Shown here: piece after piece, positions 1 to 48,150 of the stretch | Position numbering within the stretch: position 1 is the first letter of the stretch | Layout of the letters: every line of letters starts with the position of its first letter | Assembly (NCBI GenBank): GCA_035529595.1 | Contig: DATKWK010000035.1 | Span: forward strand, 177,067 to 241,066 | Source: Candidatus Bathyarchaeia archaeon | Lineage (GTDB): Bacteria > Patescibacteriota > Microgenomatia > PFEM01 > JAFGMK01 | Reading direction: 5' to 3' | DNA length: 64,000 nt | Notes under the pieces: model-generated | What the model saw: only the letters and a program-made list of their open reading frames with translations | Database searches by the model: none | What the model was told of the DNA's origin: nothing | Position numbers and translations under genes: made by a program

Positions 1-536
1 CGAGTCATACAAACCGGCAAACCATAAGTATTGTAATAAGTATAAGAAAGCAAATCAGCGCAACTTTTAGAAACATCATAAGGGTGAGATCCTCTTAAAG
101 AACTATCTTCCTGATAGGGAAGACTTTCTTGAACTCCATAAGCTTTATCGCTTGAAGCCACCACAATCGACTCAATAAAATCATTCCCTCTGGCTGCTTC
201 CAAAAGATTCCATGTCCCCTGAATATTTGATTTAAAAGTCTCAATCGGGTCTTTATTAGCTTCGCCAACAATCGCCTGGGCAGCCAGGTGAAAAATTGTT
301 TGCGGTTTATATCTTTTAATAACCTTTTTTACCAAGGTCAAACTAGAAACATTACCCTTAGCAATTTTAATCTTATCCCTAAACCCAGCCAAAACAGAAA
401 ATTGACGCGCCTTTACCTTATCTAAACCAATAAGGTTTGACCCCTGCTTTATCAAGGCCTTAGTTAACCAAGAACCAAGGAGACCTTCATGGCCAGTGAC
501 TAAAACCCGTCTTTTCCGCCAGTAACTACTAGTCAT
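1..536 (-). CDS. rfbG: CDP-glucose 4,6-dehydratase-like extended SDR, N-terminal ~178 aa (gene runs off the window start)
   Basis: Manual minus-strand translation from ATG at 534-536: MTSSYWRKRRVLVTGHEGLLGSWLTKALIKQGSNLIGLDKV... Rossmann motif VTGHEGLLGSWL matches the VTGHTGFKGSWL signature of CDP-glucose 4,6-dehydratases. No stop codon before position 1, so the ORF track does not list it. Confidence 0.6.
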   Translation of the reverse strand, partial: MTSSYWRKRRVLVTGHEGLLGSWLTKALIKQGSNLIGLDKVKARQFSVLAGFRDKIKIAKGNVSSLTLVKKVIKRYKPQTIFHLAAQAIVGEANKDPIETFKSNIQGTWNLLEAARGNDFIESIVVASSDKAYGVQESLPYQEDSSLRGSHPYDVSKSCADLLSYTYYNTYGLPVCMT

Positions 537-562
537 CTGATTATTTCCCTGAAACACTTTTC

Positions 563-1555
563 TCAAACTACCTTCAGTAATCTCTCGACTCGATTATACT
601 TCCCTGAATCGAAATCTTCTCGAGTATACCCAAATTGCTTTAATTTTACCACCAAATCCTCAATCGACTTCCCTAAAGGCCAATTTTGCCTCAAGTTCGG
701 AAAAAGAGAATCAAGCTTATCAAAATTTACTCGATAACTCCGCTTATCATCACTGTGCTCACCGGTATAAACTACTCCACATCGTGGTAGCTGCCGGCAA
801 ACTAACTTAATAATATCTTTAACCTGAAAATTATTTTCATTAAAACCAATATTGAAAACCTCGCCATTTATTTTTCTTGCTTTCGCCTCCAAAAACTTAA
901 CAAAAATTTCACTCAGATCCCGAACATCAATTAGGGCCCGCCAGGGAGTCCCGTCACTTTTTACTCTCAACTCCCCCAAAACTAAAGCCGACGCCGTCAA
1001 ATTATTAACCACCAAATCACCCCTGAATTTAGACGAGTAACCATAAACGGTAGAGTTTCTTAGAATCCCAATGCAAAAATCATCGTCAGCTAATTTTAAA
1101 AGCTCATCTTCTGATTGCTTTTTACTCCAAGCATAGGTGGTTAAAGGATTAGTCGGACTAGCTTCAGCCACTGCTTCTTTTGACCAACCGTAAACACTGC
1201 AAGAAGAAGAAAAAAGAAACTTACCAACTCCAGCTTTCTTGCAAGCCTTAGCTAATTTAACCGTTCCTAGATGATTAATCTTTTCCGTCAACTCCGGATT
1301 AAGTCTTTCCAAAGGGTCATCAGGCAAAGCAGCTAGATGAATAACCGCATCAAAACCTGATAAATCAAAGTTCCCTAAATTACAAATATCGCCCTTACGC
1401 AAATGATAATTTCTTCTATAAGGACCAAGAAGTAGGTCTTTGTAAAAAAGAGCGTCCAAACCGACTACCTGATAACCCTTTTTGACTAACTTTTCTGATA
1501 AAACTGCACCAATATAGCCATCCGAACCGGTAACGAGAACTTTTTTTATTTCCAT
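563..1555 (-). CDS. NAD-dependent sugar-nucleotide epimerase/dehydratase (SDR family)
   Basis: ORF 563..1585; translation contains VLVTGSDGYIG (GxxGxxG) and YAWSK (YxxxK). Probable start is the internal ATG at 1555 (MEIKKVLVTG...), 4 nt after the rfbF stop. Sits between rfbF and rfbG homologs. Confidence 0.7.
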   Translation of the reverse strand: MEIKKVLVTGSDGYIGAVLSEKLVKKGYQVVGLDALFYKDLLLGPYRRNYHLRKGDICNLGNFDLSGFDAVIHLAALPDDPLERLNPELTEKINHLGTVKLAKACKKAGVGKFLFSSSCSVYGWSKEAVAEASPTNPLTTYAWSKKQSEDELLKLADDDFCIGILRNSTVYGYSSKFRGDLVVNNLTASALVLGELRVKSDGTPWRALIDVRDLSEIFVKFLEAKARKINGEVFNIGFNENNFQVKDIIKLVCRQLPRCGVVYTGEHSDDKRSYRVNFDKLDSLFPNLRQNWPLGKSIEDLVVKLKQFGYTREDFDSGKYNRVERLLKVV

Positions 1556-2334
1556 ATCTTCCAAGGAGCCTTGCCGTCTCTCCACATTTTATTCACTAAA
1601 TCAAACTCTCGGGGAGTATCAATGCACTGCCAAAACCCGCGATGTTTATAAAGATGCAGTTTCTTGTATTGAACCATTTTGGGCAACACTTCACTTTCTA
1701 AAACCAAATCCTCGCCATCCCTGAAATATTTATTAAATACTTCCTTGTTAAAAAACATATAACCGCCACCGATCAACTTATCTCCTACCGCCGGCTTTTC
1801 ATCAAACTCAGAAATTATGCCTTTTTTCTCAGCCTTAATTTCGCCAAAGCGGCTAGAAGGATAGACTCCGGTCACTGTCCCCAGGGCCTTTGATTTTTTA
1901 TGAGCACGCAACAGAGCTTTGATATTAATATCGCTCAGACCATCACCGTAAGTAACCCCAAAAATATCTTCATCTTTTAAGTATTTCCGGGCTTTCCAAA
2001 CCCGAGCCCCAGTCATTGAATCCTCTCCTGTCTCTACCAGAGTCACTTTCCAATCCTCGCCTATGAAAGAGTTGTGATAAACAGCCGAATCATGTTTATT
2101 TAGACTAACTGTTACATCAGCTAATTTTGCACAATAATTTAAGAAAAATTCTTTTATTACCCAGCCTCTATAACCTAAACATAAAATAAAATCATTTATC
2201 CCATAGTGGGAATAGATTTTCATGATATGCCAAAGCATCGGCTTTTCCCCAATAGGAAGCATCGGTTTAGGAATCATTTCCGAAATCTCTCTAATCCTTG
2301 TTCCTTTTCCACCGCAGAGAATGACAACCTTCAT
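1546..2334 (-). CDS. rfbF: glucose-1-phosphate cytidylyltransferase
   Basis: 262 aa; MKVVILCGGKGTRIREISEMIPKPMLPIGEKPMLWHIMKIYSHYGINDFILCLGYRG is near-identical in pattern to the RfbF/DdhA N-terminus. Nucleotidyltransferase G-x-G-T-R motif. Confidence 0.85.
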   Translation of the reverse strand: MKVVILCGGKGTRIREISEMIPKPMLPIGEKPMLWHIMKIYSHYGINDFILCLGYRGWVIKEFFLNYCAKLADVTVSLNKHDSAVYHNSFIGEDWKVTLVETGEDSMTGARVWKARKYLKDEDIFGVTYGDGLSDINIKALLRAHKKSKALGTVTGVYPSSRFGEIKAEKKGIISEFDEKPAVGDKLIGGGYMFFNKEVFNKYFRDGEDLVLESEVLPKMVQYKKLHLYKHRGFWQCIDTPREFDLVNKMWRDGKAPWKIWK

Positions 2335-2349: not shown

Positions 2350-3378
2350 TTATGATGCAATATGTATCTTATCTCTAATATTAATTAAGAACTTTTTTAT
2401 ATTAAACCAACTATACCCCAAGGTAAACATAAAACACATTACAGGGTGTAAAAACCAAGCAATATCTTTCACATAAAGATATCCCTTGATTGCCCGTGAA
2501 AAGGGCACGATAAACGTCGTGTTGGCAAATACCAGCCAAATAAGCCAGCTCGTATCCTTTTTATGAAAAACTCCGTAAACTCTCTCTATCTTAGTGGCAG
2601 AATACATACCGGCATACCGCATTTTTCTTCTTAAAAAATTAATTACTCCTACATCAATATAATGAATTATGTGCTTATTTTTAACAAAGGCAAAGGTATT
2701 ATATCCCTGTTGTATCAAACTAACGCACATATCGATATGCGTCGCGTTTTCTTTATAATCCATCTTCTCCAAAAGCTCTCTTCTCACCAAAAAACCATTG
2801 GCGCCAAGAGTCGGAATCTTTGAAACATCGGGTTTAAATTTAACCTTATAGTATTCCCCACAATCGTAAACTGTACCGAAAGAATGCCAATTTCTGTTAT
2901 CATAGGGCCCTCGATCCGCTTTACCCAAACCGACGGCAATTGGATCACACCCGCCTATCAGAGCAAAATAACGGGATAAAATCGGATCGGTTTTTTTATA
3001 GCCGTATCTTAAGGTTTGGCATGCGATTATCTCTTTATCAGTAAATGTCTCCACCATTTTGACTAGAGCATCAGGTTCTTGAAGCCTATTGTCGGCAGAA
3101 AGAGAAAGAATCAGATCGCCCCTTGACAAGTCAAGCGCTAGTCTTCCCCTGATATTTGGCTGGTTTTTAAGGTCAGGCCGGGAAATTATAACCGCTCCGT
3201 ATTTTTTGGCAATTCTCAAAGTAGCATCAGTAGAACCACCATCTATAATTATAATATTTACTAACTTCTGATCGTAGTTTTGGCTTCTGATAGATGCAAG
3301 GCAATCTTCCAAAATCGTTTCATCATTATATGAAATCATTGGCGCTGAGATAGAATAATCTTTTTTCGATCTAGACAT
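2350..3378 (-). CDS. glycosyltransferase family 2 (GT-A)
   Basis: 342 aa; N-terminal IIIIDGGSTDATLRIAKKYGAVIISRP (GT2 DxD-type signature); C-terminal hydrophobic segments. Confidence 0.65.
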   Translation of the reverse strand: MSRSKKDYSISAPMISYNDETILEDCLASIRSQNYDQKLVNIIIIDGGSTDATLRIAKKYGAVIISRPDLKNQPNIRGRLALDLSRGDLILSLSADNRLQEPDALVKMVETFTDKEIIACQTLRYGYKKTDPILSRYFALIGGCDPIAVGLGKADRGPYDNRNWHSFGTVYDCGEYYKVKFKPDVSKIPTLGANGFLVRRELLEKMDYKENATHIDMCVSLIQQGYNTFAFVKNKHIIHYIDVGVINFLRRKMRYAGMYSATKIERVYGVFHKKDTSWLIWLVFANTTFIVPFSRAIKGYLYVKDIAWFLHPVMCFMFTLGYSWFNIKKFLINIRDKIHIAS

Positions 3379-4870
3379 TAAAATCCTTTCTCTTTGAAAA
3401 ATATTTTACTCCCAACCAAGTATAATATTTAAATCTATCCCAATCAGTTAAGCCTTCTTTTAATTTCCGCCAGATAAATTCGGGCGTTAAAAAAGAACTG
3501 TATATATTTCGTATCAAAGCCATTATTTCTTCATCGGTTATTGGTGTTTTCATTACCGGCTCTTTCATATCATACCGGCTCCAATCCGTAGTTTTCAACC
3601 AGTTATTTTTTTGACACTGGGCAAAAAGCGGTGTTCCCGGATAAGGAATCACGATTGTTGCCTGGAGAGTATCAACCCAACCATTTTTAAAAAGCTGCTG
3701 AGCTAGGCTTAGAGTTTTTAAAACTTCCTTTTTGGTCTCCCAGGGATAGCCGACCATCACTGTCACATGCGGCCAAAGTCCGGCTTCTTTAGCCATTCTG
3801 ACTCCCCGGCTGATTTGTGCCACCTGAAGATTCTTGTTAACCCGATCAAGAGTTTTTTGGTTGGCCGACTCTAGCCCATAGAGGATGAACCTAAAGCCGG
3901 CTTTTGCCATTCTGTCATAATCTTGCTGAGTTAAAGAGGCATTGAAACGCATATTACAGTCTATTTTTATTTTTTTATTGTAACCTCGCCTAATCATTCC
4001 TTCACAAAATTCCCTGAGCCAGTCCCCAACCGGAAAGGTCCCGCTATCGTCCATGATTTCTCTGACCGGCCAATGATCTAAAATATATCCGATTTCATCT
4101 ATCGCCCTCTTTGGTGACATTACCCGATAAGCTCTACCTGGGTATAAAGTTGTCCAACTACAAAAAGTGCATTTTCCCCACCAGCAGTCCCGGCCAAACA
4201 TGGTATAAGTCCCTGGTGTCCGGCTATAATTGCTGTTTTTGTAGGCATAAAGCCGCCAACAGGTTAACTCCCGATCAATAAAAGGCAAGCCATCAAGATT
4301 ATGATTCAGCCTAAATCGACCAGTAGATTTATAGTTTTGATATTTGAGTTGTGGATTTGAAATTTTAGTTTTTATTTTTGAGTTTTTTCTATACCAGATT
4401 CCCGGCTCAAGTTTTTCTCCTCTTGTCAAATGATTCACAAGATTCAATAGCAAGAAATCATAATCGCCGCCGGCCAAAATATAATCAACCCGAGAATTCT
4501 TGAAGCTTTCTTCCGGAAGGGCGGTTACATGATCACCGACTAAGACAATTTTGAGCTTTGAATTATTAGTTTTAAGTTTGTCGATAATCTTCCAATGGAG
4601 CTTCACTACCGGAGTTTTTGTTTCAATCAGCATCAAATCCGCTTTTTCTTTCCTTAAATCATTAAACCACTCTTGGTAAGTCTGGCCGCCGGCAATCCCG
4701 TCAAGCCAGGCTATTGGATAACCGGCTTTTTTCAAAAGAGTCGCCGCGTAAGCCGGTACCATCGGATAAGCGGTCCAGGGAACTTTTGACCACTGAAATT
4801 GGCGATTCTGACCTAAAAACGGAATCCCCTTAGGGGATTCCAACGGGGGATAAGCAATAACAATCTTCAT
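3371..4870 (-). CDS. B12-binding domain radical SAM protein (class B-like) with non-canonical CX4CX2C cluster motif
   Basis: 499 aa; N-terminal Rossmann-like cobalamin-binding-type domain (MKIVIAYPP...KIVLVGDHVTALPEE...YILAGGDYDF), then FGRDCWWGKCTFCS cysteine triad and GLESANQKTLDRVNK radical-SAM-like segment. Confidence 0.5.
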   Translation of the reverse strand: MKIVIAYPPLESPKGIPFLGQNRQFQWSKVPWTAYPMVPAYAATLLKKAGYPIAWLDGIAGGQTYQEWFNDLRKEKADLMLIETKTPVVKLHWKIIDKLKTNNSKLKIVLVGDHVTALPEESFKNSRVDYILAGGDYDFLLLNLVNHLTRGEKLEPGIWYRKNSKIKTKISNPQLKYQNYKSTGRFRLNHNLDGLPFIDRELTCWRLYAYKNSNYSRTPGTYTMFGRDCWWGKCTFCSWTTLYPGRAYRVMSPKRAIDEIGYILDHWPVREIMDDSGTFPVGDWLREFCEGMIRRGYNKKIKIDCNMRFNASLTQQDYDRMAKAGFRFILYGLESANQKTLDRVNKNLQVAQISRGVRMAKEAGLWPHVTVMVGYPWETKKEVLKTLSLAQQLFKNGWVDTLQATIVIPYPGTPLFAQCQKNNWLKTTDWSRYDMKEPVMKTPITDEEIMALIRNIYSSFLTPEFIWRKLKEGLTDWDRFKYYTWLGVKYFSKRKDFNV

Positions 4871-4911: not shown

Positions 4912-5952
4912 CTAACCACCGACATATCTTTTCCTTTGTTTGTCGATCTCATGCGGAACTATACCTAAGTCTTTACGGAAAAAACCATAAGGAAAATATA
5001 TGCCGTAGCAAACATGGGTAAAAAAAATCGCTATCATAACCAACCAGCTCAAATAGAGATCCTTCTCTTTTATCAATACTTCAGCTCCCGAAATCAGCAA
5101 AAGCCCGGTATAGATTACCAAGGCTGTAAAATAAATATTTTCGAAGAACGGATAAAACAGCGATATTATACTACCGATAACTAAACCGCTTATAAAAATA
5201 GTCGGGGCAAAATAACCCAAGCGGCGCGAAGTCTCCGGATACTTTTTGGCAAAAAAACCGCGGCGTACAGCGTAGCGGCTGATTTGCTTCAAATGCGGCC
5301 CAAAAATTGGCCGGCGATGGTGATAAACTATTACTTTGGGGTCATAAATTATCTTCTTGCCCAAACCCTTGGTTAAACCGAGGCATAGTTTGGTATCTTC
5401 ACCCGGCCAGTGCTTAATATCAAATCTACCCACCCGTTCGAAATCTTTTTTTCTAACCAGCAGATTAACGGAAGGAAAGTCATCAACTTCCCGCCGGTGA
5501 CTAACTTTATTCCGGTAAGTCCCGGCTCCGGCGCTGCCAAACCAGCTGGCCCAAACCCAACCGGAGGCTTTTTGGCGGATACTGTCATTGGGAGGCGTTA
5601 ACGACGGACCGCAGACAGCAACGATGTCTTTGTCTTCTTCAAATACCCTGATTGCATTTTTAAGCCAATCTTTTTGGGGATAAGAATCATCATCCAAAAA
5701 AGCCAAAATTTTACCTCTGGCTTTTTTTACTCCCAAGTTTCTCTTGTAAGCCGGTCCCGGTTTTTTACTGGCGATTACTCTGGCAGTTTCAATCTTTTCT
5801 TCCTCGTCGGTAACAACAATCAGCTCATACTTTTTATACGATTGTTTTCGTAAAAAAGAGATTGTTTCTTCAAGATAGGTGGTTGCGGTTCTGACCGGAA
5901 TAACTACTGCTACCAAATCTCCATCTGAAATGCGTGAAGTAGTGCTGGTCAC
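4912..5952 (-). CDS. glycosyltransferase family 2 with C-terminal transmembrane region
   Basis: 346 aa; LVAVVIPVRTATTYLEETISFLRKQSYKKYELIVVTDEEE...ILAFLDDDSYPQKDWL (GT2 DxD/DDD); three predicted TM helices at the C-terminus. Confidence 0.7.
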   Translation of the reverse strand: MTSTTSRISDGDLVAVVIPVRTATTYLEETISFLRKQSYKKYELIVVTDEEEKIETARVIASKKPGPAYKRNLGVKKARGKILAFLDDDSYPQKDWLKNAIRVFEEDKDIVAVCGPSLTPPNDSIRQKASGWVWASWFGSAGAGTYRNKVSHRREVDDFPSVNLLVRKKDFERVGRFDIKHWPGEDTKLCLGLTKGLGKKIIYDPKVIVYHHRRPIFGPHLKQISRYAVRRGFFAKKYPETSRRLGYFAPTIFISGLVIGSIISLFYPFFENIYFTALVIYTGLLLISGAEVLIKEKDLYLSWLVMIAIFFTHVCYGIYFPYGFFRKDLGIVPHEIDKQRKRYVGG

Positions 5953-5953
5953 C

Positions 5954-7587: not shown

Positions 7588-8116
7588 TCCGGTCCTTATA
7601 ATTAATTAAAGAATCCAATCGGTAATTTTTTAATTTGTCTCTCCCCGGAAAATAATCAAGAACAATTAAAAAGGCAATCGCTACAATTTTGCCTTTCAGT
7701 TTTTTTACCAAATTGGCAACCGCTTCCATAGTCCCGCCGGTTGCTAAAACATCATCAATCAGTAAAACCCGGTCACCCGGAAAGATTGAATTTTTTTGAA
7801 TCTCCAGGGTTCTTTTTCCGTACTCGATATCAATATCGGCTGACTCAACCTGACAGGGTAATTTTCCCTGTTTCCTTACCATAACTATTCCCGCTCCCAA
7901 CCGCTCCGCCAGAATTCCGGCCAATATAAATCCTCGGGCGTCGATACCGACGACTTTATCAATCTTTTTATTTTTATACTTAAAAACCAACCGGCCGACA
8001 AGATATTTAAGGGCTTTTTTATCTTCCAATAGCGGGGCGATGTCCCAGAAAACAATACCTTTTTCCGGAAAATCAACGATCCGGCGAATTTTTTTCTTAA
8101 GATCGGTATCGATCAT
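7577..8116 (-). CDS. apt: adenine phosphoribosyltransferase
   Basis: 179 aa; IRRIVDFPEKGIVFWDIAPLL...VVGIDARGFILAGILAERLGAGIVMVRKQGKLP...VLLIDDVLATGGTMEA (PRPP-binding motif). 11-nt overlap with mtnP. Confidence 0.85.
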   Translation of the reverse strand: MIDTDLKKKIRRIVDFPEKGIVFWDIAPLLEDKKALKYLVGRLVFKYKNKKIDKVVGIDARGFILAGILAERLGAGIVMVRKQGKLPCQVESADIDIEYGKRTLEIQKNSIFPGDRVLLIDDVLATGGTMEAVANLVKKLKGKIVAIAFLIVLDYFPGRDKLKNYRLDSLINYKDRNGN

Positions 8117-34207: not shown

Positions 34208-34238
34208 TTTGCATTCCGAAGAAAATTCAGGGTATAAT
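34208..34238 (+). promoter_or_regulatory. sigma70-like promoter (-35 TTTGCA, 19-nt spacer, -10 TATAAT) driving the plus-strand paralog, probably leaderless or short-leader
   Basis: TTTGCA at 34208-34213, TATAAT at 34233-34238, ATG at 34248. Located in the 57-nt divergent intergenic region 34152..34208. Confidence 0.4.
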
Positions 34239-34247
34239 TTGGCCATC

Positions 34248-42920: not shown

Positions 42921-44405
42921 TCAAACTCCTTTTTTTCTCAGTTTTACAACTCTAAATCCAAAATCTTCGAAATACCACTCGGTAGCAACCTCCGATTCTC
43001 CGAAACTCGATATTTCCCAGGCAGTCATATCACCGAGGGGAATATTTTCCTGCTCGTAAATTACATATAATGTGTCGATACCGGAATAATTTTCAAAACC
43101 CTCGGGCCGGGCATCGTAAATTTCTACAAAATAACGATAGTTCATCGCCCGGAAGTCATAAGTAGGAGAAATCAGGGCCAAATTGAATCGGCTGCCTTTC
43201 GCGTCTTCGGCAATTACTTTACCGACTTCCCTGGCTCTTTTAATCTGATAATTAGGTCCCCGACCGGCTACCGGATCCAAGTTTAAAATGTTAACAACCA
43301 AAAGAAATGCGAGCAAAATAAAACCTATAAAAATTAGCCGCATTTGAAATATTTTTTTGATTACGATTGAAACCAGCAAAAAAGGCATCGGGAATAAAAA
43401 TCCCAGATAATGATCATGGATATCACCCAGATAAAAACTGACCCCGATTACCCCGATCAACAGCCAAAAAAATAAGGTTGTCAGTACCGGAGATTTTTTT
43501 TCTTTTTTTAATAGACCGAGAAAAGGAAGAAAACCAGCCACTATTAAAAAATAAGCGATAATCTTTTTCCCGCCGGCAAGGAAATAGTAAAAAAGACGCC
43601 AAGGGACAAAAGCGACTGTCTTAAGATAAGTGACTAAACTAAAACCTAATTTTTTTTCTTCCCGAAAAAAGCGCCATAAACCTTCAGTGATAATGAAATG
43701 ATGACGAACTTCAAAAAAAAGCAGGGGAAGAATTGGTATTAAAAAAGCCCCGGCTCCCAAAATGTACCACTTTCCGGAAATCCGCGGCCGAAGAAAAAGG
43801 ATTGTTACCAGGGATGAAATAACAAACAACCAGCTAATGTAATGAAGCTGGGTACAAACTCCCAGGCAAAAACCAACGACAATAATCCAAAACCCCCGAT
43901 CGCTCTTTAATAGTTTCAAAAGGGCATAAACCGCCAAAGCGGCAAAGAAGGGTGTCGGATTAGGATTCCAGGAAAAGCGAGAATGGCTAATAATCGGCCA
44001 GGATACTGAGTATAAAGAGGCAGCGATTAACCCGGTCGGCGAGCCGAAAAATTCGTTACCGAGCTTAAAAATCAGATAAACAGTGGCGACGCCAAAGACG
44101 GCTACCATTATTGCCGGACCAACCGGATCAAGACGGGCCAGCCAAAGAGGCAAAAGCATAAAATAATAGTAAACGGGTCCCAAATAAAGGTTGCCGATGC
44201 TGGTTGAAGGCCCGAGTAAAGTAAACTTGTGATCAACAATCATCCTCTTAACCACTAAAGCATCCCGGCCCTCGTCACCTAAGAAAGTAGCGTAATCAGC
44301 AATCCGGTAAAGCCGCAAAAAAGAAGCCAGTATCAATATCAGCCAAAGAAGAATTAAGGTGATTTTTTTTTGTTTTGTCCGACTGGTCATCTTAACTGCC
44401 ACCAA
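42921..44405 (-). CDS. ArnT/PMT-like GT-C membrane glycosyltransferase
   Basis: 494 aa; FLGDEGRDALVVKRMIVDHKFTLLGPSTSIGNLYLGPVYYYFMLLP matches the ArnT DE-x-R-x-A...M loop and the 11590/21548 paralogs. Confidence 0.55.
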   Translation of the reverse strand: MVAVKMTSRTKQKKITLILLWLILILASFLRLYRIADYATFLGDEGRDALVVKRMIVDHKFTLLGPSTSIGNLYLGPVYYYFMLLPLWLARLDPVGPAIMVAVFGVATVYLIFKLGNEFFGSPTGLIAASLYSVSWPIISHSRFSWNPNPTPFFAALAVYALLKLLKSDRGFWIIVVGFCLGVCTQLHYISWLFVISSLVTILFLRPRISGKWYILGAGAFLIPILPLLFFEVRHHFIITEGLWRFFREEKKLGFSLVTYLKTVAFVPWRLFYYFLAGGKKIIAYFLIVAGFLPFLGLLKKEKKSPVLTTLFFWLLIGVIGVSFYLGDIHDHYLGFLFPMPFLLVSIVIKKIFQMRLIFIGFILLAFLLVVNILNLDPVAGRGPNYQIKRAREVGKVIAEDAKGSRFNLALISPTYDFRAMNYRYFVEIYDARPEGFENYSGIDTLYVIYEQENIPLGDMTAWEISSFGESEVATEWYFEDFGFRVVKLRKKGV

Positions 44406-45094
44406 AGTCTCCCTAAATCAACGAAGGATTTGAAGATAACTTTAAAATCAGCGCCTGTCGACCTTCCCCTCTTTCGCGGATAATGATGGACACCAACCTC
44501 AGCGATCTTAAATCCGGCTTTTTTAGCTTTAGCCAGCAACTCCGGAGAGATCATACCGCCTCTGACTGAGATAAGACGGGGAATAGAATCAATTACCTTT
44601 TTGTCAACCAATTTAAAACCGCAGTCAACATCTTTTACTTTTATTCCCAGAAGAAAATTAGCCAGAAACGTCCAGCCCCGGCCAAATAACTGGCGAACAA
44701 ATGAATCTTGCCGGTTGATCCGGTAACCGATTACGATATCAGCGCCTGTTTTTTTCTTGGTCTCCAAGAACTGGCTGATTTCAGAAAAGTCAAATTGCCC
44801 ATCGGCATCGGTAAAAGCAATCAGGCCGAAACGGGAACCGTAAAAACCCTCCTTTAATCCGGAACCGTAACCCTGATTTGTTTGGTGATGGATAACCCGA
44901 ATCCGCTTATTTCGGATGGCTAACTGATCGGCAACCGCACCAGTCCGATCGGTCGAACCGTCATTAATAATCAAGATCTCCCACTCTTGGGCAATCTTGG
45001 GCAATATTTCAAGAGTTTTTGCTACTACCGATTCAATGTTTCCTTCTTCGTTATAGGCCGGAAAAAAAACGGAGATTGATTTTAGCTTTTCCAT
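44387..45094 (-). CDS. GT2 polyprenyl-phosphate sugar synthase (ArnC/Dpm1-like)
   Basis: 235 aa; ISVFFPAYNEEGNIESVVAKTLEILPKIAQEWEILIINDGSTDRTGAVADQL...IAFTDADGQFD...IVIGYR. 19-nt overlap with the downstream ArnT-like gene. Confidence 0.7.
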   Translation of the reverse strand: MEKLKSISVFFPAYNEEGNIESVVAKTLEILPKIAQEWEILIINDGSTDRTGAVADQLAIRNKRIRVIHHQTNQGYGSGLKEGFYGSRFGLIAFTDADGQFDFSEISQFLETKKKTGADIVIGYRINRQDSFVRQLFGRGWTFLANFLLGIKVKDVDCGFKLVDKKVIDSIPRLISVRGGMISPELLAKAKKAGFKIAEVGVHHYPRKRGRSTGADFKVIFKSFVDLGRLWWQLR

Positions 45095-45164: not shown

Positions 45165-46313
45165 ATGAGCCAAATGAAGAAAAAGCTGGCAATCATTGCT
45201 TTAATCACACTAACATCCACTTTCTCAATCTGGCTGCCTTTTATTTTATCCTTGAAGAGTTTTTTGGGTTTTCCTATCCCGTCCGGAGGAACGAGCAATC
45301 TCTGGGCCAATTATGACGGCCCGAATTATATTATTGTTGCTAAAACCTGGTATCAAAAGAAGCTAATTGAGCGAAATTTTTCCTTGCCTCTGCCGCTTGA
45401 ATATTATCCGGCCCACTGGCCCGGTTATCCCCTGCTTATCAGACTGGTGGGAAATCTGCTTCCCTTTACCCAGGCGATGATGGTTTCTACTTTAATAAGC
45501 TCGCTGCTGGCTGCAACGGTCTATTTCCTCTTTCTTTCGGAATTTAAACTATCGACTAATCCTCTCTGGTTAACGGTAGTTTTTCTCTTTTTACCGGCTC
45601 GCTTTTTCATCACCCGCTCGGTCGGTACCCCTGAACCGCTCTTTATCGGATTTATCTTAGCTTCATTTTATTTTTTTAAAAAGAAAAAATATTGGCGGGC
45701 CGGGATATTCGGCGCTTTAGCCCAAATAACCAAAACACCGGCAATTCTTCTTTTTTTTACCTATGGAATCTATTTACTGCAACAAGCATTCAAAAATAAA
45801 AACGTCAAGGAAGCGGTCCGGAAGACGCTTAAGGAAGCCTTGCCTTTACTAATGATACCGCTGGCTGTTTTATTGGTTTTTATCTTCTACCGGGTCCGGA
45901 CAGGCGACTTTTGGGCTTATTTTCACTCGGGCGATAATTTCCACCTAACTTTACTGCCTTTTCAAGCTTTCAATTCTTCGCGAAGCTGGCTGGGTGATAT
46001 CTGGACTGAGGATATGATTTGGCTGTACCTGCTGGCCGCCATCAGCGTTATTTTACTGCTAAAGAAAGGCTTAACTGATTTAGGAATTTTTGCCGCCTTA
46101 TTCTATACGGCGACTCTTTTTGTTGCCCATCGGGATATCTCCCGCTATAGCTTGCCCCTTTGGCCTATTGGCCTGATCGGTTTTGATGCATTCATTCAGA
46201 GGAAAGAATTCAAAATTGCCTTTTTGCTTATCCTGCCGGCGATTTATTTATACGCTTTAAATTTTATACTCGGGAACCGGGCGCCGATTGCCGATTGGGC
46301 TCCTTATCTTTGA
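45165..46313 (+). CDS. polytopic membrane protein, PIG-V/GT76-like mannosyltransferase family (GT-C)
   Basis: 382 aa; WANYDGPNYIIVAKTWYQKKLIERNFSLPLPLEYYPAHWPGYPLL parallels the 9412..10566 WANFDGIHYLQIAQRGY...AFFPFYP block; about 9 TM helices. Confidence 0.45.
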   Translation: MSQMKKKLAIIALITLTSTFSIWLPFILSLKSFLGFPIPSGGTSNLWANYDGPNYIIVAKTWYQKKLIERNFSLPLPLEYYPAHWPGYPLLIRLVGNLLPFTQAMMVSTLISSLLAATVYFLFLSEFKLSTNPLWLTVVFLFLPARFFITRSVGTPEPLFIGFILASFYFFKKKKYWRAGIFGALAQITKTPAILLFFTYGIYLLQQAFKNKNVKEAVRKTLKEALPLLMIPLAVLLVFIFYRVRTGDFWAYFHSGDNFHLTLLPFQAFNSSRSWLGDIWTEDMIWLYLLAAISVILLLKKGLTDLGIFAALFYTATLFVAHRDISRYSLPLWPIGLIGFDAFIQRKEFKIAFLLILPAIYLYALNFILGNRAPIADWAPYL

Positions 46314-47032
46314 TGAAAAAAGCTTATCAAAAACCGGATTTTTCCATTATCGTCCCGACCTACAACGAAGAAAAATATATTTTCCAGTGTCTTGAGGCGA
46401 TCAAAAATCAGAATTTTACCGGCTCTTGGGAAACTATCATCATTGACAGCTTTTCAACAGATAAAACTGTTGCCATTGCCAAACAGTTTAATACCAAACT
46501 GTTTCAGGCTAAACGAGAAGGTCCGGGATTGGCTAAAAGAACCGGTTGTCTGAAAGCACAGGCCGATCTGATTGCCCTGACCGATGCCGACATTTGCCTG
46601 CCCCGGAATTGGCTGCAAAAAGCTTATCAGAACTTACAAAATCCGCTGGTCTCGGCTACCGGCGGACCTTACCTTTACCGAGAGATGTCAAAACCGCTGG
46701 CTTTCATAAACAAAACCATTCATCTATGGCTTTTAAAGTCTTTCCAAGCGCTGCCCGGCGGCAGTATTGCCTTCCGCCGTCAGGATTATTTTAATGTCGG
46801 CGGAATTCCGACCGGGGTTACTTTTGGCGAAGACGTCTATATCTCGCGTAAGCTGTCTAAGATCGGTAAAATTCTGGTTGACCCTAAGTTGACAGTTATC
46901 GAATCGGGCAGAAGGATTGGCATCAGCGGTTTAATCAGCGGTAAGTACTCCTACCTGATCCACGCCTGGAAATTTTTGAGAACCGGAGACTTTGAAGTAC
47001 TTAAAAAAACCAGAATGAAGAAAATTGATTAG
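46313..47032 (+). CDS. glycosyltransferase family 2
   Basis: ORF 46295..47032; ATG at 46313 overlaps the upstream stop (ATGA). MKKAYQKPDFSIIVPTYNEEKYIFQCLEAIKNQNFTGSWETIIIDSFSTDKTVAIAKQ...ALTDADI. Confidence 0.65.
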   Translation: MKKAYQKPDFSIIVPTYNEEKYIFQCLEAIKNQNFTGSWETIIIDSFSTDKTVAIAKQFNTKLFQAKREGPGLAKRTGCLKAQADLIALTDADICLPRNWLQKAYQNLQNPLVSATGGPYLYREMSKPLAFINKTIHLWLLKSFQALPGGSIAFRRQDYFNVGGIPTGVTFGEDVYISRKLSKIGKILVDPKLTVIESGRRIGISGLISGKYSYLIHAWKFLRTGDFEVLKKTRMKKID

Positions 47033-48150
47033 GACACCCGCCAAATGACGCGGGTATACATCAGGTAGTTATAGGGAAGGACAAAAAAACCGATGGCGGC
47101 CACTAAGTAAAATTGTCTCCACTGCTCGCCAAAAAAATATGCCAAACCGCCGACAACCGCCCCCTGAATCAGCACTGCGCCGAGAGAAGTAAAATTGAAC
47201 TGCAGAAATTTAGCCACGAGTTTCCCCGGACCGGAAATTTTTTCTTTGGAAAACGTCCACAGATTATTAAGCGTGAAATTGGAAATGATCGCCAATTCCG
47301 CCCCGAAAGCGGCGGCGATTCCGGGACTTAATCCCAAGCGGTAAAATAATTCCAAGCCGGAAGCATTAACCAAATAGCCGATAAAACCGACGACGCCAAA
47401 CTTGACGAACCGCTGGGAACGCTCGATTCTGATTTTGGTGGCCTGCTTAATATATTCTAAGATATCTTTGATAAATTGCAGATTAAAGCCTACCTTGGCC
47501 TGACCAGCCCGCCGGTCTTTATAGATTGCCGGAATTTCACAAAATTTAGCGCCGGCCTTGCTAAGTTCATAAATCATCGTCATCTGAATCACAAAACCTT
47601 TAACATTGAGCTTTTTTAAATCAACTTGGTCAAGGATCTTTTTCACTCTGATGGCTTTCATATTGCCGTTATGATCTTTTACTTCATGGATACCGGCCCA
47701 ATAATAAGCCAACAAAGTATTGGAAACCCAGTGGGTTAGTTTTCGGAAAGGGGAAAAATTGTCGCGGCCGCCGGGGACATGGCGCGAAGGAACAGCCACA
47801 TCATAGCCTTTTTCAATTTTTGCCAGTAAATCGGGAATATAATCCGGATCCCATTGAAAATCAGCGTCATTAGGAATCACTACATCAGCTTTTAATGCCT
47901 TCATGGCGTACTGATAACCTTGAATCAGAGAGACACCCAGGCCGCGCGGCGCTTCCAGACAGAAAAGATCTTTTCTGTCTTTTGCCAGGTTTTTAACAAT
48001 CGCTGCCGTTCCGTCGGGTGAATGGCTATCAACCACCAGAGTGGAAAAATCGTACTGAGGCAGCTTTTTGGCAATTTTATCCAAAACCTCAATCATCAGT
48101 CCGACGTTATCTTTTTCGTTGTAAGTCGCCAGCAGATTAACAACTCTCAT
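47029..48150 (-). CDS. GT2 polyprenyl-phosphate mannose/glycose synthase with fused C-terminal GtrA-like membrane domain
   Basis: 373 aa; MRVVNLLATYNEKDNVGLMIEVLDKIAKKLPQYDFSTLVVDSHSPDGTAAIV...VIPNDADFQWDP...AVPSRH. C-terminal FVKFGVVGFIGYLVNASGLELFYRLGLSPGIAAAFGAELAIISNFTLNNLWTF is a GtrA-type 4-TM module. Confidence 0.7.
   Translation of the reverse strand: MRVVNLLATYNEKDNVGLMIEVLDKIAKKLPQYDFSTLVVDSHSPDGTAAIVKNLAKDRKDLFCLEAPRGLGVSLIQGYQYAMKALKADVVIPNDADFQWDPDYIPDLLAKIEKGYDVAVPSRHVPGGRDNFSPFRKLTHWVSNTLLAYYWAGIHEVKDHNGNMKAIRVKKILDQVDLKKLNVKGFVIQMTMIYELSKAGAKFCEIPAIYKDRRAGQAKVGFNLQFIKDILEYIKQATKIRIERSQRFVKFGVVGFIGYLVNASGLELFYRLGLSPGIAAAFGAELAIISNFTLNNLWTFSKEKISGPGKLVAKFLQFNFTSLGAVLIQGAVVGGLAYFFGEQWRQFYLVAAIGFFVLPYNYLMYTRVIWRVS

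What the first reader, a model, noticed from the sequence alone, without database searches (positions are those of the whole stretch)
1..48150. ~48-kb glycosylation mega-island with at least 15 GT-C fold membrane glycosyltransferases and at least 6 polyprenyl-phosphate sugar synthases
The sequence shows a contiguous, mostly minus-strand block. Gene junctions are ATGA overlaps or spacers under 50 nt, which suggests co-transcription.
- Nucleotide-sugar synthesis: rfbF, rfbG-like, epimerase.
- About 16 GT-A enzymes (GT2/GT4). At least six have Dpm1/CsbB/ArnC-like signatures, and these make lipid-linked monosaccharide donors.
- A large number of periplasm-facing GT-C transferases that use such donors: ArnT/PMT-like with the DE loop, YfhO, PIG-V-like, and an unclassified GHDGLWH family.
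- Two Wzx-type flippases.

A dense concentration of polyprenol-P-sugar-dependent enzymes of this kind is typical of protein O-glycosylation (Pmt) or teichoic-acid/lipid glycosylation (CsbB-YfhO, ArnC-ArnT).

Pro/Thr-rich secreted proteins are encoded a few kb away (56221..57084, 57077..59953). I infer that this island decorates surface proteins or envelope polymers with several different sugars. It may be a multi-branch O-glycosylation system, not a conventional Wzy-type O-antigen locus: there is no Wzy/Wzz and no initiating phosphoglycosyltransferase.
Basis: partly seen in the sequence, partly recalled or inferred. Interest (0 to 1): 0.75.

Follow-up and report, generated by a model that had tools for sequence, protein, structure and literature searches.

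The report
GT-C-rich surface glycosylation island, CPR bacterium
A tiny-genome CPR (Microgenomates) bacterium carries a gene island of at least 58 kb with 16 outward-facing membrane glycosyltransferases, including a new enzyme family folded like the oligosaccharyltransferases of archaea and eukaryotes, and the core of the island is conserved across the whole class.

Summary

**Content of window 1-49174:** 41 tightly packed genes.
- 16 GT-C membrane glycosyltransferases: 15 full-length and 1 truncated.
- 5, not 6 or more, DPMS/GtrB/ArnC-like polyprenyl-phosphate sugar synthases.
- 9 other GT2 and 2 GT4 enzymes. GT4 is GT-B fold, not GT-A.
- 2 MOP/Wzx flippases, CDP-hexose genes, a B12-radical-SAM enzyme and IPP isomerase.
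- Pfam finds no Wzy, Wzz or initiating phosphoglycosyltransferase.

**Extent and origin:** The island continues at least 10 kb past the left edge of the window. The host is a Microgenomates-class Patescibacterium. The NCBI copy is mislabelled as an archaeon.

**New findings:**
- The unclassified "GHDGLWH" proteins are GT-C enzymes. Their closest solved folds are STT3, PglB, AglB and DPY19, including an AglB-like C-terminal domain. They lack WWDYG and have no sequence match to any solved structure.
- Window ~18-47 kb is syntenic in 78 loci from other Microgenomates. The order Wzx→GHDGLWH protein→GT2→GT2→GT2→GT4 is the most conserved part.

**Best model:** a two-compartment, archaeal-Agl/ER-like pathway. 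Glycan is assembled on a lipid carrier in the cytoplasm, flipped by Wzx and transferred by the OST-like enzyme. GT-Cs then decorate it on the outer face using polyprenyl-P-sugars. Whether the acceptor is protein or polymer is undetermined.

The parts
1..562 (-). 3' part of an RfbG-like CDP-glucose 4,6-dehydratase gene, cut by the window edge
   Evidence: Frame translation. The full gene in L003 11799-12770 scores 221 bits on TIGR02622, below the cut-off of 278.
563..1585 (-). NAD-dependent sugar epimerase/dehydratase (SDR)
   Evidence: Pfam Epimerase 1.5e-41. NCBIfam gives only partial matches.
1546..2334 (-). Glucose-1-phosphate cytidylyltransferase (RfbF-like)
   Evidence: TIGR02623 at 295.7 bits, full length, cut-off 300.25.
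2350..3378 (-). GT2 glycosyltransferase (cytoplasmic)
   Evidence: Pfam Glycos_transf_2 4e-15.
3371..4870 (-). B12-binding radical SAM enzyme (HpnJ/BchE-like), probably sugar tailoring
   Evidence: Pfam Radical_SAM plus B12-binding. TIGR03471 1.5e-47, below cut-off.
4912..5952 (-). GT2 with 3 C-terminal TM helices (MftF/EpsD-like). Not supported as a polyprenyl-P-sugar synthase.
5954..6772 (-). PP1: short DPMS/GtrB/ArnC-like polyprenyl-phosphate glycosyltransferase
   Evidence: Best PDB hit 5mlz DPMS, 1.3e-14 over residues 16-217. NCBIfam partial hits to PgfS/ArnC/PpgS.
6775..7587 (-). S-methyl-5'-thioadenosine phosphorylase
   Evidence: NF005876 at 333 bits, above cut-off 306.
7577..8116 (-). 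Adenine phosphoribosyltransferase
   Evidence: NF002636 at 207 bits, above cut-off 125.
8113..9402 (-). WzxA: MOP-family flippase
   Evidence: Pfam Polysacc_synt 5e-14 and Polysacc_synt_3. 10 TM helices.
9412..10533 (-). U2a: PIG-V/Gpi18-like GT-C transferase (373 aa by the JGI gene call)
10541..11638 (-). GT4a (GT-B fold glycosyltransferase)
   Evidence: Pfam Glycos_transf_1 1.2e-30.
11590..13128 (-). B1: PMT_2-like GT-C (DQGRD loop)
   Evidence: PMT_2 at 23.4 bits, below the gathering score. BLASTP 2e-20 to 42921-44405.
13130..13939 (-). GT2b
   Evidence: Pfam 5e-22.
13955..15646 (-). A1: PMT_2 GT-C (FNADE loop)
   Evidence: PMT_2 at 34.7 bits, above the gathering score. Loop motif.
15648..17189 (-). 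A2: PMT_2-like GT-C with SSSE in place of the xDE motif
   Evidence: BLASTP 1e-38 to A1. Motif.
17179..18027 (-). A3f: 282-aa N-terminal-half paralogue of family A (truncated, possibly a remnant)
   Evidence: BLASTP 2e-22 and 2e-23 to the N-terminal halves of A1 and A4.
18073..19752 (-). A4: PMT_2 GT-C (FGDE loop)
   Evidence: PMT_2 at 43.6 bits.
19789..20607 (-). GT2c
   Evidence: Pfam 1.7e-25. Syntenic in relatives.
20604..21530 (-). GT2d
   Evidence: Pfam 8e-25. Syntenic in relatives.
21548..23122 (+). B2: GT-C of family B with no Pfam hit
   Evidence: hhalign 100% (E 2e-89) to the 42921 family. BLASTP 1.6e-14.
23085..25547 (-). YfhO1: YfhO-family GT-C
   Evidence: Pfam YfhO at 70.3 bits.
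25432..26502 (-). GT4b (conserved core)
   Evidence: Pfam 2.5e-24. GT2e->GT4b adjacency in 51 loci.
26509..27282 (-). GT2e (conserved core)
27310..28224 (-). GT2f (conserved core)
28221..30566 (-). YfhO2: YfhO-family GT-C, overlapping its upstream synthase gene by 4 nt
   Evidence: Pfam YfhO at 49.1 bits. Junction.
30563..31279 (-). PP2: DPMS/AglJ-like polyprenyl-phosphate glycosyltransferase
   Evidence: PDB 5mlz 4e-18, also ArnC and GtrB. TIGR04182 AglJ at 106 bits, below cut-off.
31243..32157 (-). GT2g (conserved core, follows U1a)
32190..34151 (-). U1a: OST-like GT-C of a new family (GHDGxWH motif, invariant D132)
34209..36284 (+). U1b: paralogue of U1a
   Evidence: 29% identity over the full length, E 6e-82. 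GHDGLWH motif present.
36262..37755 (-). WzxB: MOP flippase, conserved directly upstream of U1a
   Evidence: Polysacc_synt_3 1e-47. WzxB->U1a adjacency in 56 loci.
37772..39472 (-). PTPS_related GT-C (HDD loop)
   Evidence: PF10131 at 41.7 bits. hhalign 99.8% to YfhO.
39469..40596 (-). C39: 375-aa GT-C
   Evidence: PF02366 at 20.9 bits, below threshold. hhalign 95.6% to family A.
40583..42184 (-). B3: PMT_2 GT-C (FADEAIY loop)
   Evidence: PMT_2 at 43.4 bits.
42159..42914 (-). PP3: polyprenyl-phosphate glycosyltransferase. It overlaps B3, and the pair is conserved.
   Evidence: PDB GtrB 1e-16 and DPMS 1e-13. PP3->B3 adjacency in 19 loci.
42921..44405 (-). B4: PMT_2 GT-C
   Evidence: PMT_2 at 39.0 bits.
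44387..45094 (-). PP4: polyprenyl-phosphate glycosyltransferase, overlapping B4
   Evidence: PDB GtrB 3e-16 and ArnC 5e-16.
45165..46313 (+). U2b: PIG-V-like GT-C paralogue
   Evidence: BLASTP 1.4e-7 to U2a. Partial NF046093 hit. Same position in relatives L008 and L061.
46295..47032 (+). GT2h
   Evidence: Pfam 8.5e-26.
47029..48150 (-). PP5: full-length archaeal-type DPMS (GT2 plus GtrA/DPMS TM domain)
   Evidence: Pfam GT2 plus GtrA_DPMS_TM. PDB 5mlz 5e-34 over residues 1-370.
48587..49174 (-). Type-1 isopentenyl-diphosphate isomerase (supplies the carrier lipid). Right edge of the island.
   Evidence: NF002995 at 169 bits, above cut-off 127.

Best explanation
This is the cell-surface glycan factory of a Microgenomates (CPR/Patescibacteria) bacterium. 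It appears to work in two compartments, like archaeal Agl or ER N-glycan assembly.

1. *Cytoplasm.* CDP-hexose and other activated sugars are made and tailored by RfbF, RfbG-like and epimerase enzymes, the radical SAM enzymes and methyltransferases.
2. *Inner face of the membrane.* Soluble GT4 and GT2 enzymes build an oligosaccharide on a polyprenyl phosphate carrier. The conserved run is GT4b-GT2e-GT2f-GT2g, plus GT2c/d.
3. *Flipping.* The MOP flippase WzxB flips this lipid-linked glycan.
4. *Transfer.* The gene immediately downstream, U1, is a new GT-C family with an STT3/PglB/AglB-like fold and an AglB-like C-terminal domain. It transfers the glycan to an acceptor outside the membrane.
5. 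*Outer-face decoration.* Five DPMS/GtrB/ArnC-like GT2s charge polyprenyl phosphate with single sugars. After flipping, these donors are used by the other 13-14 GT-C enzymes (PMT_2-like families A and B, YfhO, PTPS-related, PIG-V-like, C39) to add further residues and branches.

*Shown:* the gene content, the folds, the conserved Asp loops and the conserved synteny.
*Inferred:* the order of steps, the donor for each GT-C, that U1 acts en bloc, and the acceptor (surface protein and/or wall polymer), which I leave open.
For: **Gene families.** Pfam, NCBIfam and PDB searches.

**16 GT-C genes.**
- Shown by Pfam, paralogy and hhalign. The Wzx negative control gave at most 0.4% probability against every GT-C family.

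**U1 is OST-like.**

**Catalytic loop and topology.**
- A conserved Asp follows TM1 in 15 of 16 GT-Cs, including invariant D132 in U1.
- N-termini are K/R-rich, which is consistent with that loop facing outward.

**Conserved gene order in 78 related loci.**
- WzxB->U1a: 56 loci.
- U1a->GT2g: 39.
- GT2g->GT2f: 39.
- GT2f->GT2e: 37.
- GT2e->GT4b: 51.
- PP3->B3: 19.

**Coupling and carrier supply.**
- Synthase and GT-C genes overlap by 4-26 nt three times.
- IPP isomerase lies at the island edge.
- A PAP2 phosphatase sits inside the cluster in some relatives.

**Precedent.** The Haloferax Agl pathway uses exactly this logic and needs no phosphoglycosyltransferase: GT2 priming on Dol-P, Wzx-like AglR/Agl15, the OST AglB, Dol-P-Man made by AglD and used outside by AglS (PMC3871713).
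Against: - No biochemical or glycan data exist.
- U1 lacks the WWDYG motif and shows no sequence-level similarity to any OST, so en bloc protein transfer is an inference from fold and gene neighbourhood.
- GT-C global TM-scores are only about 0.45-0.52.
- The priming enzyme is not identified.
- Only one GtrA-type domain is present for five lipid-monosaccharide donors, so how those donors are flipped is unexplained.
- Synteny classes were assigned by best BLASTP hit to window proteins, which can mislabel paralogues.
- Only ±10 kb around U1 genes was examined in relatives.
- Co-transcription is inferred from spacing alone.
Confidence: 0.6

Rival explanations
1. One reading: a multi-branch protein O-glycosylation system. 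The PMT/ArnT-like GT-Cs each put a different sugar from a polyprenyl-P-sugar directly onto Ser/Thr of secreted Pro/Thr-rich, sortase-handled surface proteins such as 56221-57084.
For: - DE-loop PMT_2 proteins and five donor synthases are present.
- A sortase, a PT-rich fn3 protein and a 958-aa DUF11 protein lie 7-11 kb away.
- The closest solved folds of U1 are all protein glycosyltransferases.
Against: - PMT_2 is a generic GT-C family.
- PF02366 is hit only once and below threshold, and no protein hits PMT_4TMC.
- 16 transferases for 5 donors, plus 11 cytoplasmic GT2/GT4 enzymes and 2 Wzx flippases, are not needed for monosaccharide O-glycosylation.
- The surface-protein genes lie outside the island, beyond housekeeping genes (trmD, rtcB), and have a different GC content.
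Confidence: 0.2
2. Extracytoplasmic assembly of a wall-linked or lipid-anchored heteropolysaccharide, like mycobacterial arabinogalactan/LAM (PimE, Mpt, Aft and Emb GT-Cs using polyprenyl-P-sugars) or Gram-positive teichoic-acid glycosylation (CsbB-YfhO). U1 would attach or extend a polymer, not modify a protein.
For: - Many paralogous GT-Cs share few donors.
- AftA, AftB, AftD and PimE are among the structural neighbours.
- There is a CsbB-like/YfhO gene pair with a 4-nt overlap.
- The WzxB profile partly matches TuaB.
- The organism is sortase-bearing and so probably monoderm.
Against: - No LCP ligase, TagO/TarO-type initiator, teichoic-acid ABC exporter or LtaS was hit in the 74 kb examined.
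- U1 ranks closer to the OST and DPY19 enzymes than to the Aft enzymes in both fold searches, and it carries an AglB-like domain.
Confidence: 0.3
3. An ordinary Wzx/Wzy-dependent O-antigen or capsule locus whose Wzy and initiator are too divergent to recognise.
For: - Two Wzx genes are present.
- GC is lower than in the flank, as in many O-antigen loci.
- The left arm looks variable and encodes rare-sugar genes.
Against: - No Wzy_C, Wzz or Bac_transf/Glycos_transf_4 family appeared in the window scans or in the precomputed Pfam hits for the left extension.
- The polytopic protein beside WzxA is GT-C by structure, as is the one beside WzxB.
- The core is syntenic across a whole class, unlike hypervariable O-antigen loci.
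Confidence: 0.07

Closest known systems
Archaeal Agl N-glycosylation pathway of Haloferax volcanii (AglJ/G/I/E, AglR/Agl15, AglB, AglD, AglS; PMC3871713)
   Same: - A clustered gene set with no phosphoglycosyltransferase.
- DPMS-like GT2 enzymes; PP2's best NCBIfam hit is AglJ.
- Soluble GT2s extend a lipid-linked glycan.
- Wzx-like flippases.
- A GT-C with an STT3/AglB fold and an AglB-like C-terminal domain.
- A separate lipid-P-monosaccharide donor used on the outer face by another GT-C.
   Different: - The host is a bacterium (TrmD, sortase).
- U1 has no WWDYG motif and no detectable sequence similarity to AglB.
- There are 16 GT-Cs where the archaeal pathway has about 2.
- All NCBIfam Agl hits are far below their cut-offs.
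- The acceptor and linkage type are unknown.
Eukaryotic ER lumenal N-glycan assembly (ALG3/9/12/6/8/10, Dpm1, Alg5, OST/STT3)
   Same: - Several GT-C enzymes extend a flipped lipid-linked glycan using polyprenyl-P-Man/Glc donors.
- An STT3-like enzyme follows them.
- ALG12, ALG9, ALG3, ALG6 and STT3 are top structural neighbours.
   Different: - There is no sequence-level orthology.
- The genes form a bacterial operon-like cluster.
- No Alg7-type initiator was found.
- YfhO, PTPS-related and PMT_2 families take the place of the ALG families.
Mycobacterial/corynebacterial envelope GT-C set (Ppm1, PimE, MptA-C, AftA-D, EmbA-C, Pmt)
   Same: A comparable number of GT-C enzymes fed by polyprenyl-P-sugar synthases, building complex glycans outside the membrane.
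   Different: By my own knowledge, not tested here, the mycobacterial genes are dispersed over a 4.4-Mb genome. Here they are packed into about 48 kb of a genome likely under 1 Mb. No Emb, Aft or GT87 family was hit in the window.
Three-component Gtr / CsbB-YfhO / ArnC-ArnT modification systems
   Same: Adjacent, translationally coupled GT2 synthase and GT-C transferase genes (PP2-YfhO2, PP3-B3, PP4-B4).
   Different: - Separate GtrA/GtcA flippase genes are missing; there is only one fused GtrA domain, on PP5.
- The modules are embedded in a much larger pathway with Wzx flippases and cytoplasmic GTs.
Bacterial oligosaccharyltransferases PglB (N-linked) and PglL/PilO (O-linked)
   Different: - No WWDYG motif and no STT3 Pfam hit.
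- Not of the Wzy_C (PglL) type.
- The flippase is MOP-type, not the ABC transporter PglK.

Membership tests
GT-C glycosyltransferase superfamily | Polytopic membrane protein (about 8-13 TM helices) | tested here: met
   The hydropathy scan gives 5-12 TM helices for the 15 full-length genes and 4 for the truncated one. The AF2 models are helical bundles.
GT-C glycosyltransferase superfamily | Conserved acidic residue in the first extracytoplasmic loop after TM1 | tested here: met
   A conserved Asp is present in 15 of 16 (DE, DQ, HDD, FDG, GHDG motifs). A2 (15648-17189) has SSSE instead. K/R-rich N-termini place the loop outside.
GT-C glycosyltransferase superfamily | Match to a GT-C family profile or fold | tested here: met
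Oligosaccharyltransferase STT3/AglB/PglB (GT66), for U1 | STT3-type TM fold plus C-terminal globular domain | tested here: met
Oligosaccharyltransferase STT3/AglB/PglB (GT66), for U1 | WWDYG sequon-binding motif | tested here: not met
   There is no WWD-type motif in the sequence or in the 44-sequence consensus.
Oligosaccharyltransferase STT3/AglB/PglB (GT66), for U1 | Sequence-level homology (Pfam STT3, or a PDB OST chain) | tested here: not met
   No Pfam or NCBIfam hit. The family profile finds no PDB chain at E<=10.
Oligosaccharyltransferase STT3/AglB/PglB (GT66), for U1 | Transfers a lipid-(P)P-linked oligosaccharide en bloc to protein | not testable with these tools
   Only indirect evidence: a Wzx flippase lies directly upstream in 56 of 78 loci.
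Protein O-mannosyltransferase (GT39, PMT) | PF02366 PMT domain above threshold, and a PMT_4TMC C-terminal domain | tested here: not met
   Only 39469-40596 hits PF02366, at 20.9 bits against a cut-off of 22.7. No protein hits PMT_4TMC.
Protein O-mannosyltransferase (GT39, PMT) | DE motif in loop 1 | tested here: met
   Family A (xDE..GY) and B3 (FADEAIY) have it. The motif is shared with ArnT-like enzymes, so it is not diagnostic.
Polyprenyl-phosphate glycosyltransferases (DPMS/GtrB/ArnC/CsbB type GT2) | Best solved relatives are DPMS, GtrB or ArnC, with the match running through the whole catalytic domain | tested here: met
   Met for 5954, 30563, 42159, 44387 and 47029. Not met for 4912-5952.
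Polyprenyl-phosphate glycosyltransferases (DPMS/GtrB/ArnC/CsbB type GT2) | Membrane anchoring (C-terminal TM helices or a GtrA/DPMS TM domain) | tested here: inconclusive
   Only 47029-48150 has the TM domain. The other four are 235-272 aa with no, or only one marginal, predicted TM segment, like PpgS or the catalytic domain of Ppm1.
CsbB-YfhO type modification module | A YfhO-family GT-C next to a CsbB-like GT2, plus a GtcA/GtrA flippase | tested here: inconclusive
   The YfhO2/PP2 pair is present with a 4-nt overlap. There is no separate GtrA-family gene. YfhO1 has no adjacent synthase.
Wzx/Wzy-dependent O-antigen or capsule locus | Wzx flippase | tested here: met
   Two MOP flippases.
Wzx/Wzy-dependent O-antigen or capsule locus | Wzy polymerase, Wzz/PCP co-polymerase and an initiating phosphoglycosyltransferase | tested here: not met
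   No such Pfam family appeared for any ORF of at least 150 aa scanned in the window or in the precomputed Pfam hits for the 10-kb left extension. The candidates next to Wzx are GT-C.

The most novel reading that the evidence does not exclude
The GHDGxWH (U1) proteins are a previously unrecognised class of bacterial oligosaccharyltransferase. They would be distant structural relatives of STT3/AglB/PglB that lack the WWDYG sequon clamp. Together with the conserved Wzx, GT2/GT4 and GT-C genes they would give Microgenomates (CPR) bacteria a general, ER/archaea-like protein glycosylation pathway: lipid-linked glycan assembly, flipping, outer-face GT-C remodelling and en bloc transfer to S-layer, pilus or sortase-anchored proteins. 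That would be the first such multi-GT-C pathway in Bacteria and is relevant to how these episymbionts build and vary their surface.
Probability: 0.3. Interest if true: 0.85.

Novelty: new variant of a known kind. Interest (0 to 1): 0.66.

Why it matters
**Why the host matters.** CPR/Patescibacteria are a large share of bacterial diversity. They have genomes of about 1 Mb, and their cultivated members live attached to other cells, so their surface is central to their biology. The one Saccharibacteria paper I read calls their glycosylation processes "unexplored" (PMC11623550).

**What was found.**
- One organism devotes at least 58 kb to a glycan pathway with 16 outward-facing GT-C enzymes. Copies of its genes lie on a contig of up to 847 kb.
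- The pathway's core is syntenic across the class Microgenomatia.
- It contains an OST-like GT-C family that no profile library or solved structure recognises by sequence.

**What it would enable, if the model holds.**
- A bacterial counterpart of archaeal/ER-type glycan assembly.
- New enzymes for glyco-engineering.
- Concrete candidates (U1, the Wzx-U1 pair) for testing how CPR cells decorate S-layers, pili or walls.

Eight full-text literature searches found no description of this cluster (one search was for the Agl comparison).

Tried and rejected
- **Is 9412-10662, beside WzxA, a hidden Wzy?** Rejected. Its homologues carry PF04188/PMT_2 and the model is GT-C.
- **Is U1 a canonical OST?** Rejected as a member. 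It has no WWDYG motif, no STT3 Pfam hit and no PDB sequence hit. The similarity is in fold only.
- **Is 4912-5952 a sixth ArnC/GtrB-like synthase, given its C-terminal TM helices?** Not supported. Its best hits are MftF, EpsD and GalT1.
- **Is the source an archaeon, as the NCBI copy is labelled (Bathyarchaeia)?** Rejected. TrmD is 64-72% identical to its named relatives, which are all Microgenomates-group or other Patescibacteria TrmDs, and a sortase is present.
- **Is the low GC explained by membrane-protein composition?** Not entirely. GC3 is also about 10 points lower, and the soluble GT2s share the low GC. Because the core is syntenic class-wide, recent horizontal transfer of the core is unlikely. 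The left arm could be variable, but this was not tested.
- **RNA elements.** Rfam and tRNA scans of the window found nothing.
- **AFDB Foldseek** was not available.
- **A phosphoglycosyltransferase among unlabelled ORFs in related loci.** Of the ten tested with Pfam, four hit further GT-C families (GT87, PIG-M, PMT_2), one was a PAP2 phosphatase and five had no hit. None was a phosphoglycosyltransferase.
- **Not pursued.** The U2b family alignment taken from the loci was too thin for hhalign, so the searched homologues were used instead. The large HMM representative search and the metagenome scan were not used, because neither would have changed the verdict.

Full report
**1. Checking the observation**

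ORF listing and junction arithmetic show 41 genes from position 1 to 49174. Every junction is an overlap or a gap of at most 70 nt. Only four genes lie on the plus strand: 21548-23122, 34209-36284, 45165-46313 and 46295-47032.

Pfam scans of every ORF of at least 150 aa gave:
- 14 GT2 and 2 GT4 enzymes.
- Two Polysacc_synt/MOP flippases (8113-9402 and 36262-37755).
- An epimerase and a nucleotidyltransferase.
- A B12-radical-SAM enzyme.
- A long series of polytopic membrane proteins.

NCBIfam names 1546-2334 as glucose-1-phosphate cytidylyltransferase (295.7 bits; cut-off 300.25). The ORF cut by the window edge at 1-562 is best matched by CDP-glucose 4,6-dehydratase. The "rfbF, rfbG-like, epimerase" reading therefore holds.

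**2. Counting the GT-C proteins**

*Seven are above Pfam gathering scores.*
- PMT_2: 13955, 18073, 40583, 42921.
- YfhO: 23085, 28221.
- PTPS_related: 37772.

*Three give only sub-threshold PMT_2 or PMT hits:* 11590, 15648 and 39469.

*All-against-all BLASTP sorts the membrane proteins into paralogue families.*
- Family A: 13955, 15648, 17179, 18073.
- Family B: 11590, 21548, 40583, 42921.
- YfhO: 2 genes.
- U1: 32190 and 34209, 29% identical over the full length.
- U2: 9412 and 45165.

*Local profile-profile comparison.* I built the profiles from homologues in 78 related loci.
- 39469-40596 links to family A: 95.6%, E 1e-8, 274 columns.
- PTPS_related links to YfhO: 99.8%.
- U1 links to family A: 94.5%.
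- U2 links to family B: 92%.
- The Wzx profile, used as a negative control, scored at most 0.4% against all of them.

*The two families without any profile hit were tested by structure.*
- Many U2 homologues also carry PF04188 (PIG-V/Gpi18) in precomputed annotation.

*Result.* There are 16 GT-C genes. Of these, 17179-18027 is only a 282-aa N-terminal half, and 15648-17189 has SSSE where its paralogues have xDE. In the other 15 a conserved Asp lies just after TM1. In 12 of 16 the N-terminus before TM1 is K/R-rich with no acidic residue, which places that loop outside. "At least 15 GT-C" is confirmed.

**3. The donor synthases**

Five GT2s have P. furiosus DPMS (5mlz), GtrB (5ekp) and ArnC as their best solved relatives, with matches that run through the whole catalytic domain. 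They are 5954, 30563, 42159, 44387 and 47029.
- 47029-48150 aligns to DPMS end to end (E 5e-34) and carries the GtrA/DPMS TM domain.

I therefore count five. Three synthase genes overlap the start of a GT-C gene: 44387->42921, 42159->40583 and 30563->28221 (YfhO).

**4. What is absent**

No Wzy_C, Wzz, Bac_transf or MraY/WecA-type family was hit by Pfam anywhere in the window. None is recorded in the precomputed Pfam hits for the 10 kb beyond the left edge either. The polytopic proteins next to both Wzx genes, the obvious places for a hidden Wzy, are GT-C by structure.

**5. Origin and extent**

An exact-sequence look-up places the window on JGI metagenome contig Ga0307378_10000010 (394,681 bp). 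Copies occur on contigs of up to 846,852 bp.

The NCBI copy is labelled "Candidatus Bathyarchaeia archaeon", but that label is a binning error:
- The window encodes TrmD and a sortase.
- TrmD is 64-72% identical to its named relatives, which are all Microgenomates-group or other Patescibacteria TrmDs, including Shapirobacteria and Chisholmbacteria.
- The homologues of U1 and U2 come from Pacebacteria, Daviesbacteria, Woesebacteria and similar lineages.

The host is therefore a Microgenomates-class CPR bacterium.

The island is truncated by the window. The next 10 kb to the left encode the rest of the RfbG-like gene, a NeuB/PseI-like-cupin fusion, three radical SAM/SPASM proteins, a methyltransferase, a NUDIX protein, another epimerase and a HAD hydrolase. 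On the right the island ends with a type-1 IPP isomerase (48587-49174; 169 bits, above cut-off 127). After that come trmD and other housekeeping genes.

The island is at least 58 kb long. Its GC is 0.41 and GC3 0.42, against 0.50 and 0.52 in the 14 kb of flank.

**6. The U1 family**

- U1 has no Pfam or NCBIfam hit. A 44-sequence profile finds no PDB chain even at E<=10.
- Foldseek independently puts STT3, DPY19, AglB and PglB in its first 16 places.
- U2, by contrast, ranks ALG12 first and STT3B only tenth. The OST-likeness of U1 is therefore not just generic GT-C similarity.
- The family consensus shows an invariant Asp in GHDGxWH in the first long outer loop of the core. It shows no WWDYG motif. 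I therefore do not file U1 as an OST. It is an OST-like new GT-C family.
- Relatives were found at 346 places in GTDB species genomes. Among the 80 listed, essentially all that carry a meaningful name are Microgenomates-type Patescibacteria.

**7. Conservation**

I labelled the ORFs in 78 related loci (±10 kb around a U1 gene) by best BLASTP hit to window proteins.
- The 51 full-size loci hold a median of 7 GT-C-like ORFs (maximum 10), 4 GT2, 1 GT4 and 1 Wzx.
- The gene order is strikingly conserved and matches window 44405->18073 on the minus strand: B4-PP3-B3-(C39)-PTPS-WzxB-U1a-GT2g-GT2f-GT2e-GT4b-YfhO-(B2)-GT2d-GT2c-A4.

| Adjacent same-strand pair | Loci |
|---|---|
| WzxB->U1a | 56 |
| GT2e->GT4b | 51 |
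| U1a->GT2g | 39 |
| GT2g->GT2f | 39 |
| GT2f->GT2e | 37 |
| PP3->B3 | 19 |

- Ten unlabelled ORFs from these loci were tested with Pfam. Four hit further GT-C families (GT87, PIG-M, PMT_2), one between GT2f and GT2e is a PAP2 phosphatase, and five had no hit.

The core of the island is therefore an old, vertically inherited cluster of the class. The left arm (window 1-18 kb plus the extension) was outside the range I could compare.

**8. Mechanism**

The anatomy fits a two-compartment pathway.

*Shown:*
- Sugar-nucleotide and tailoring genes.
- Eleven cytoplasmic GT2/GT4 enzymes.
- Two MOP flippases.
- Five polyprenyl-P-sugar synthases.
- Sixteen outward-facing GT-Cs.
- Tight gene coupling.
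- The conserved Wzx-U1-GT2-GT2-GT2-GT4 block.

*Inferred:*
- The conserved GT4/GT2 run builds a lipid-linked oligosaccharide.
- WzxB flips it.
- U1 transfers it en bloc.
- The remaining GT-Cs add sugars from polyprenyl-P-monosaccharides on the outer face.

The closest working analogy is the Haloferax volcanii Agl pathway, which needs no phosphoglycosyltransferase (PMC3871713):
- AglJ, a DPMS-like GT2, primes on dolichol phosphate.
- AglG, AglI and AglE extend the glycan.
- A Wzx-like protein (AglR/Agl15) takes part in flipping.
- AglB transfers the glycan.
- AglD and AglS add a last mannose outside, from Dol-P-Man.

This analogy also offers an explanation for the missing initiator. The ER ALG/OST pathway and the mycobacterial GT-C set are the other comparators.

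*Open points:*
- What the acceptor is (protein versus wall or lipid polymer).
- Which enzyme primes.
- How four of the five lipid-monosaccharide donors are flipped, given that only one GtrA domain is present.

**9.

[quoted passage not shown] is supported. "Protein O-glycosylation of the nearby PT-rich proteins" is possible but untested.
- 56221-57084 does carry a long PT-rich linker, an fn3 domain and a C-terminal TM helix, and it lies next to a sortase.
- Those genes are separated from the island by housekeeping genes.
- The PMT_2 hits are not specific for protein mannosyltransferases.

**10. Novelty**

All component kinds are known. Three things appear new:
- An OST-like GT-C family that is invisible to sequence profiles.
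- The density: 16 GT-C genes in 48 kb.
- A class-wide conserved cluster in CPR bacteria.

Full-text searches with seven term sets found no description of it. The library does not cover subscription journals, so prior mention cannot be excluded. I rate it a new variant of a known kind, with interest 0.66.

Noticed in passing
window 6775-8116: S-methyl-5'-thioadenosine phosphorylase and adenine phosphoribosyltransferase, both above their NCBIfam cut-offs, sit inside the sugar island. They lie two GT2 genes away from the B12-radical-SAM gene, and three more radical SAM genes lie in the left extension. This looks like dedicated salvage of 5'-deoxyadenosine/MTA by-products, but it was not tested.
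   Followed up: partly
L003 11799-20789 (the 10 kb beyond the window's left edge): The island continues here. It encodes the RfbG-like dehydratase, a 508-aa NeuB/PseI-like plus cupin fusion, three radical SAM/SPASM proteins, a 390-aa methyltransferase, a NUDIX protein, an epimerase and a HAD hydrolase. This is an unusual tailoring set for a rare sugar. GC is 0.37.
   Followed up: partly
window 48587-49174: A type-1 isopentenyl-diphosphate isomerase lies directly at the right edge of the island. It is a plausible link to supply of the polyprenyl carrier.
   Followed up: partly
window 15648-18027: Two family-A GT-C paralogues look degenerate. 15648-17189 has SSSE in place of the catalytic xDE motif, and 17179-18027 is only the N-terminal 282 aa. 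This suggests ongoing duplication and decay.
   Followed up: partly
window 1-49174 versus 49886-64000: Island genes average GC 0.41 and GC3 0.42, against 0.50 and 0.52 in the flank. The soluble enzymes share the low GC, and GC rises from left to right across the island. The core is nevertheless syntenic across the class, so the compositional shift is unexplained.
   Followed up: partly
window 61196-63999: A separate exopolysaccharide-like module: a GH18 hydrolase (61196-62314), a membrane GT2 with chitin-synthase/PgaC-like hits (62406-63539), and a DUF2334/polysaccharide-deacetylase-like ORF cut by the window end.
   Followed up: partly
window 54674-60669: A surface-protein cluster with GC up to 0.57:
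- a CAP-domain membrane protein;
- a sortase;
- a PT-rich fn3 protein;
- a 958-aa DUF11 protein with an acidic, Ser/Thr-rich N-terminal region;
- a 179-aa secreted repeat protein with no family hit.
   Followed up: partly
window 50649-52194: An adjacent LemA and TPM-domain phosphatase gene pair, a common membrane-associated pair of unknown role.
   Followed up: no
public records: The NCBI MAG holding exact copies of these genes is labelled 'Candidatus Bathyarchaeia archaeon'. Many GTDB species genomes with the same cluster are titled 'uncultured Gammaproteobacteria', 'Nevskiaceae' or 'Clostridia'. Gene content and the closest named relatives indicate Patescibacteria, so these are likely taxonomic mislabels.
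   Followed up: partly
P0043, P0053, P0064, P0087 and others: About a fifth of the U1 homologues are around 1140 aa, roughly 480 aa longer. One carries PF12979, and a 941-aa homologue (P0119) carries PF26314. The extra domain was not examined.
   Followed up: no
L008 14050-14742; similar ORFs in L061: In some relatives a PAP2-family phosphatase (3e-21) sits between the conserved GT2f and GT2e genes. This would fit recycling of polyprenyl diphosphate after en bloc transfer. It is absent from this window.
   Followed up: partly
window 48196-48516 and 49107-49511: Two small ORFs (106 aa, acidic; 134 aa with an N-terminal TM helix and Cys-rich) lie between the island and trmD. Neither has a family hit.
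   Followed up: no
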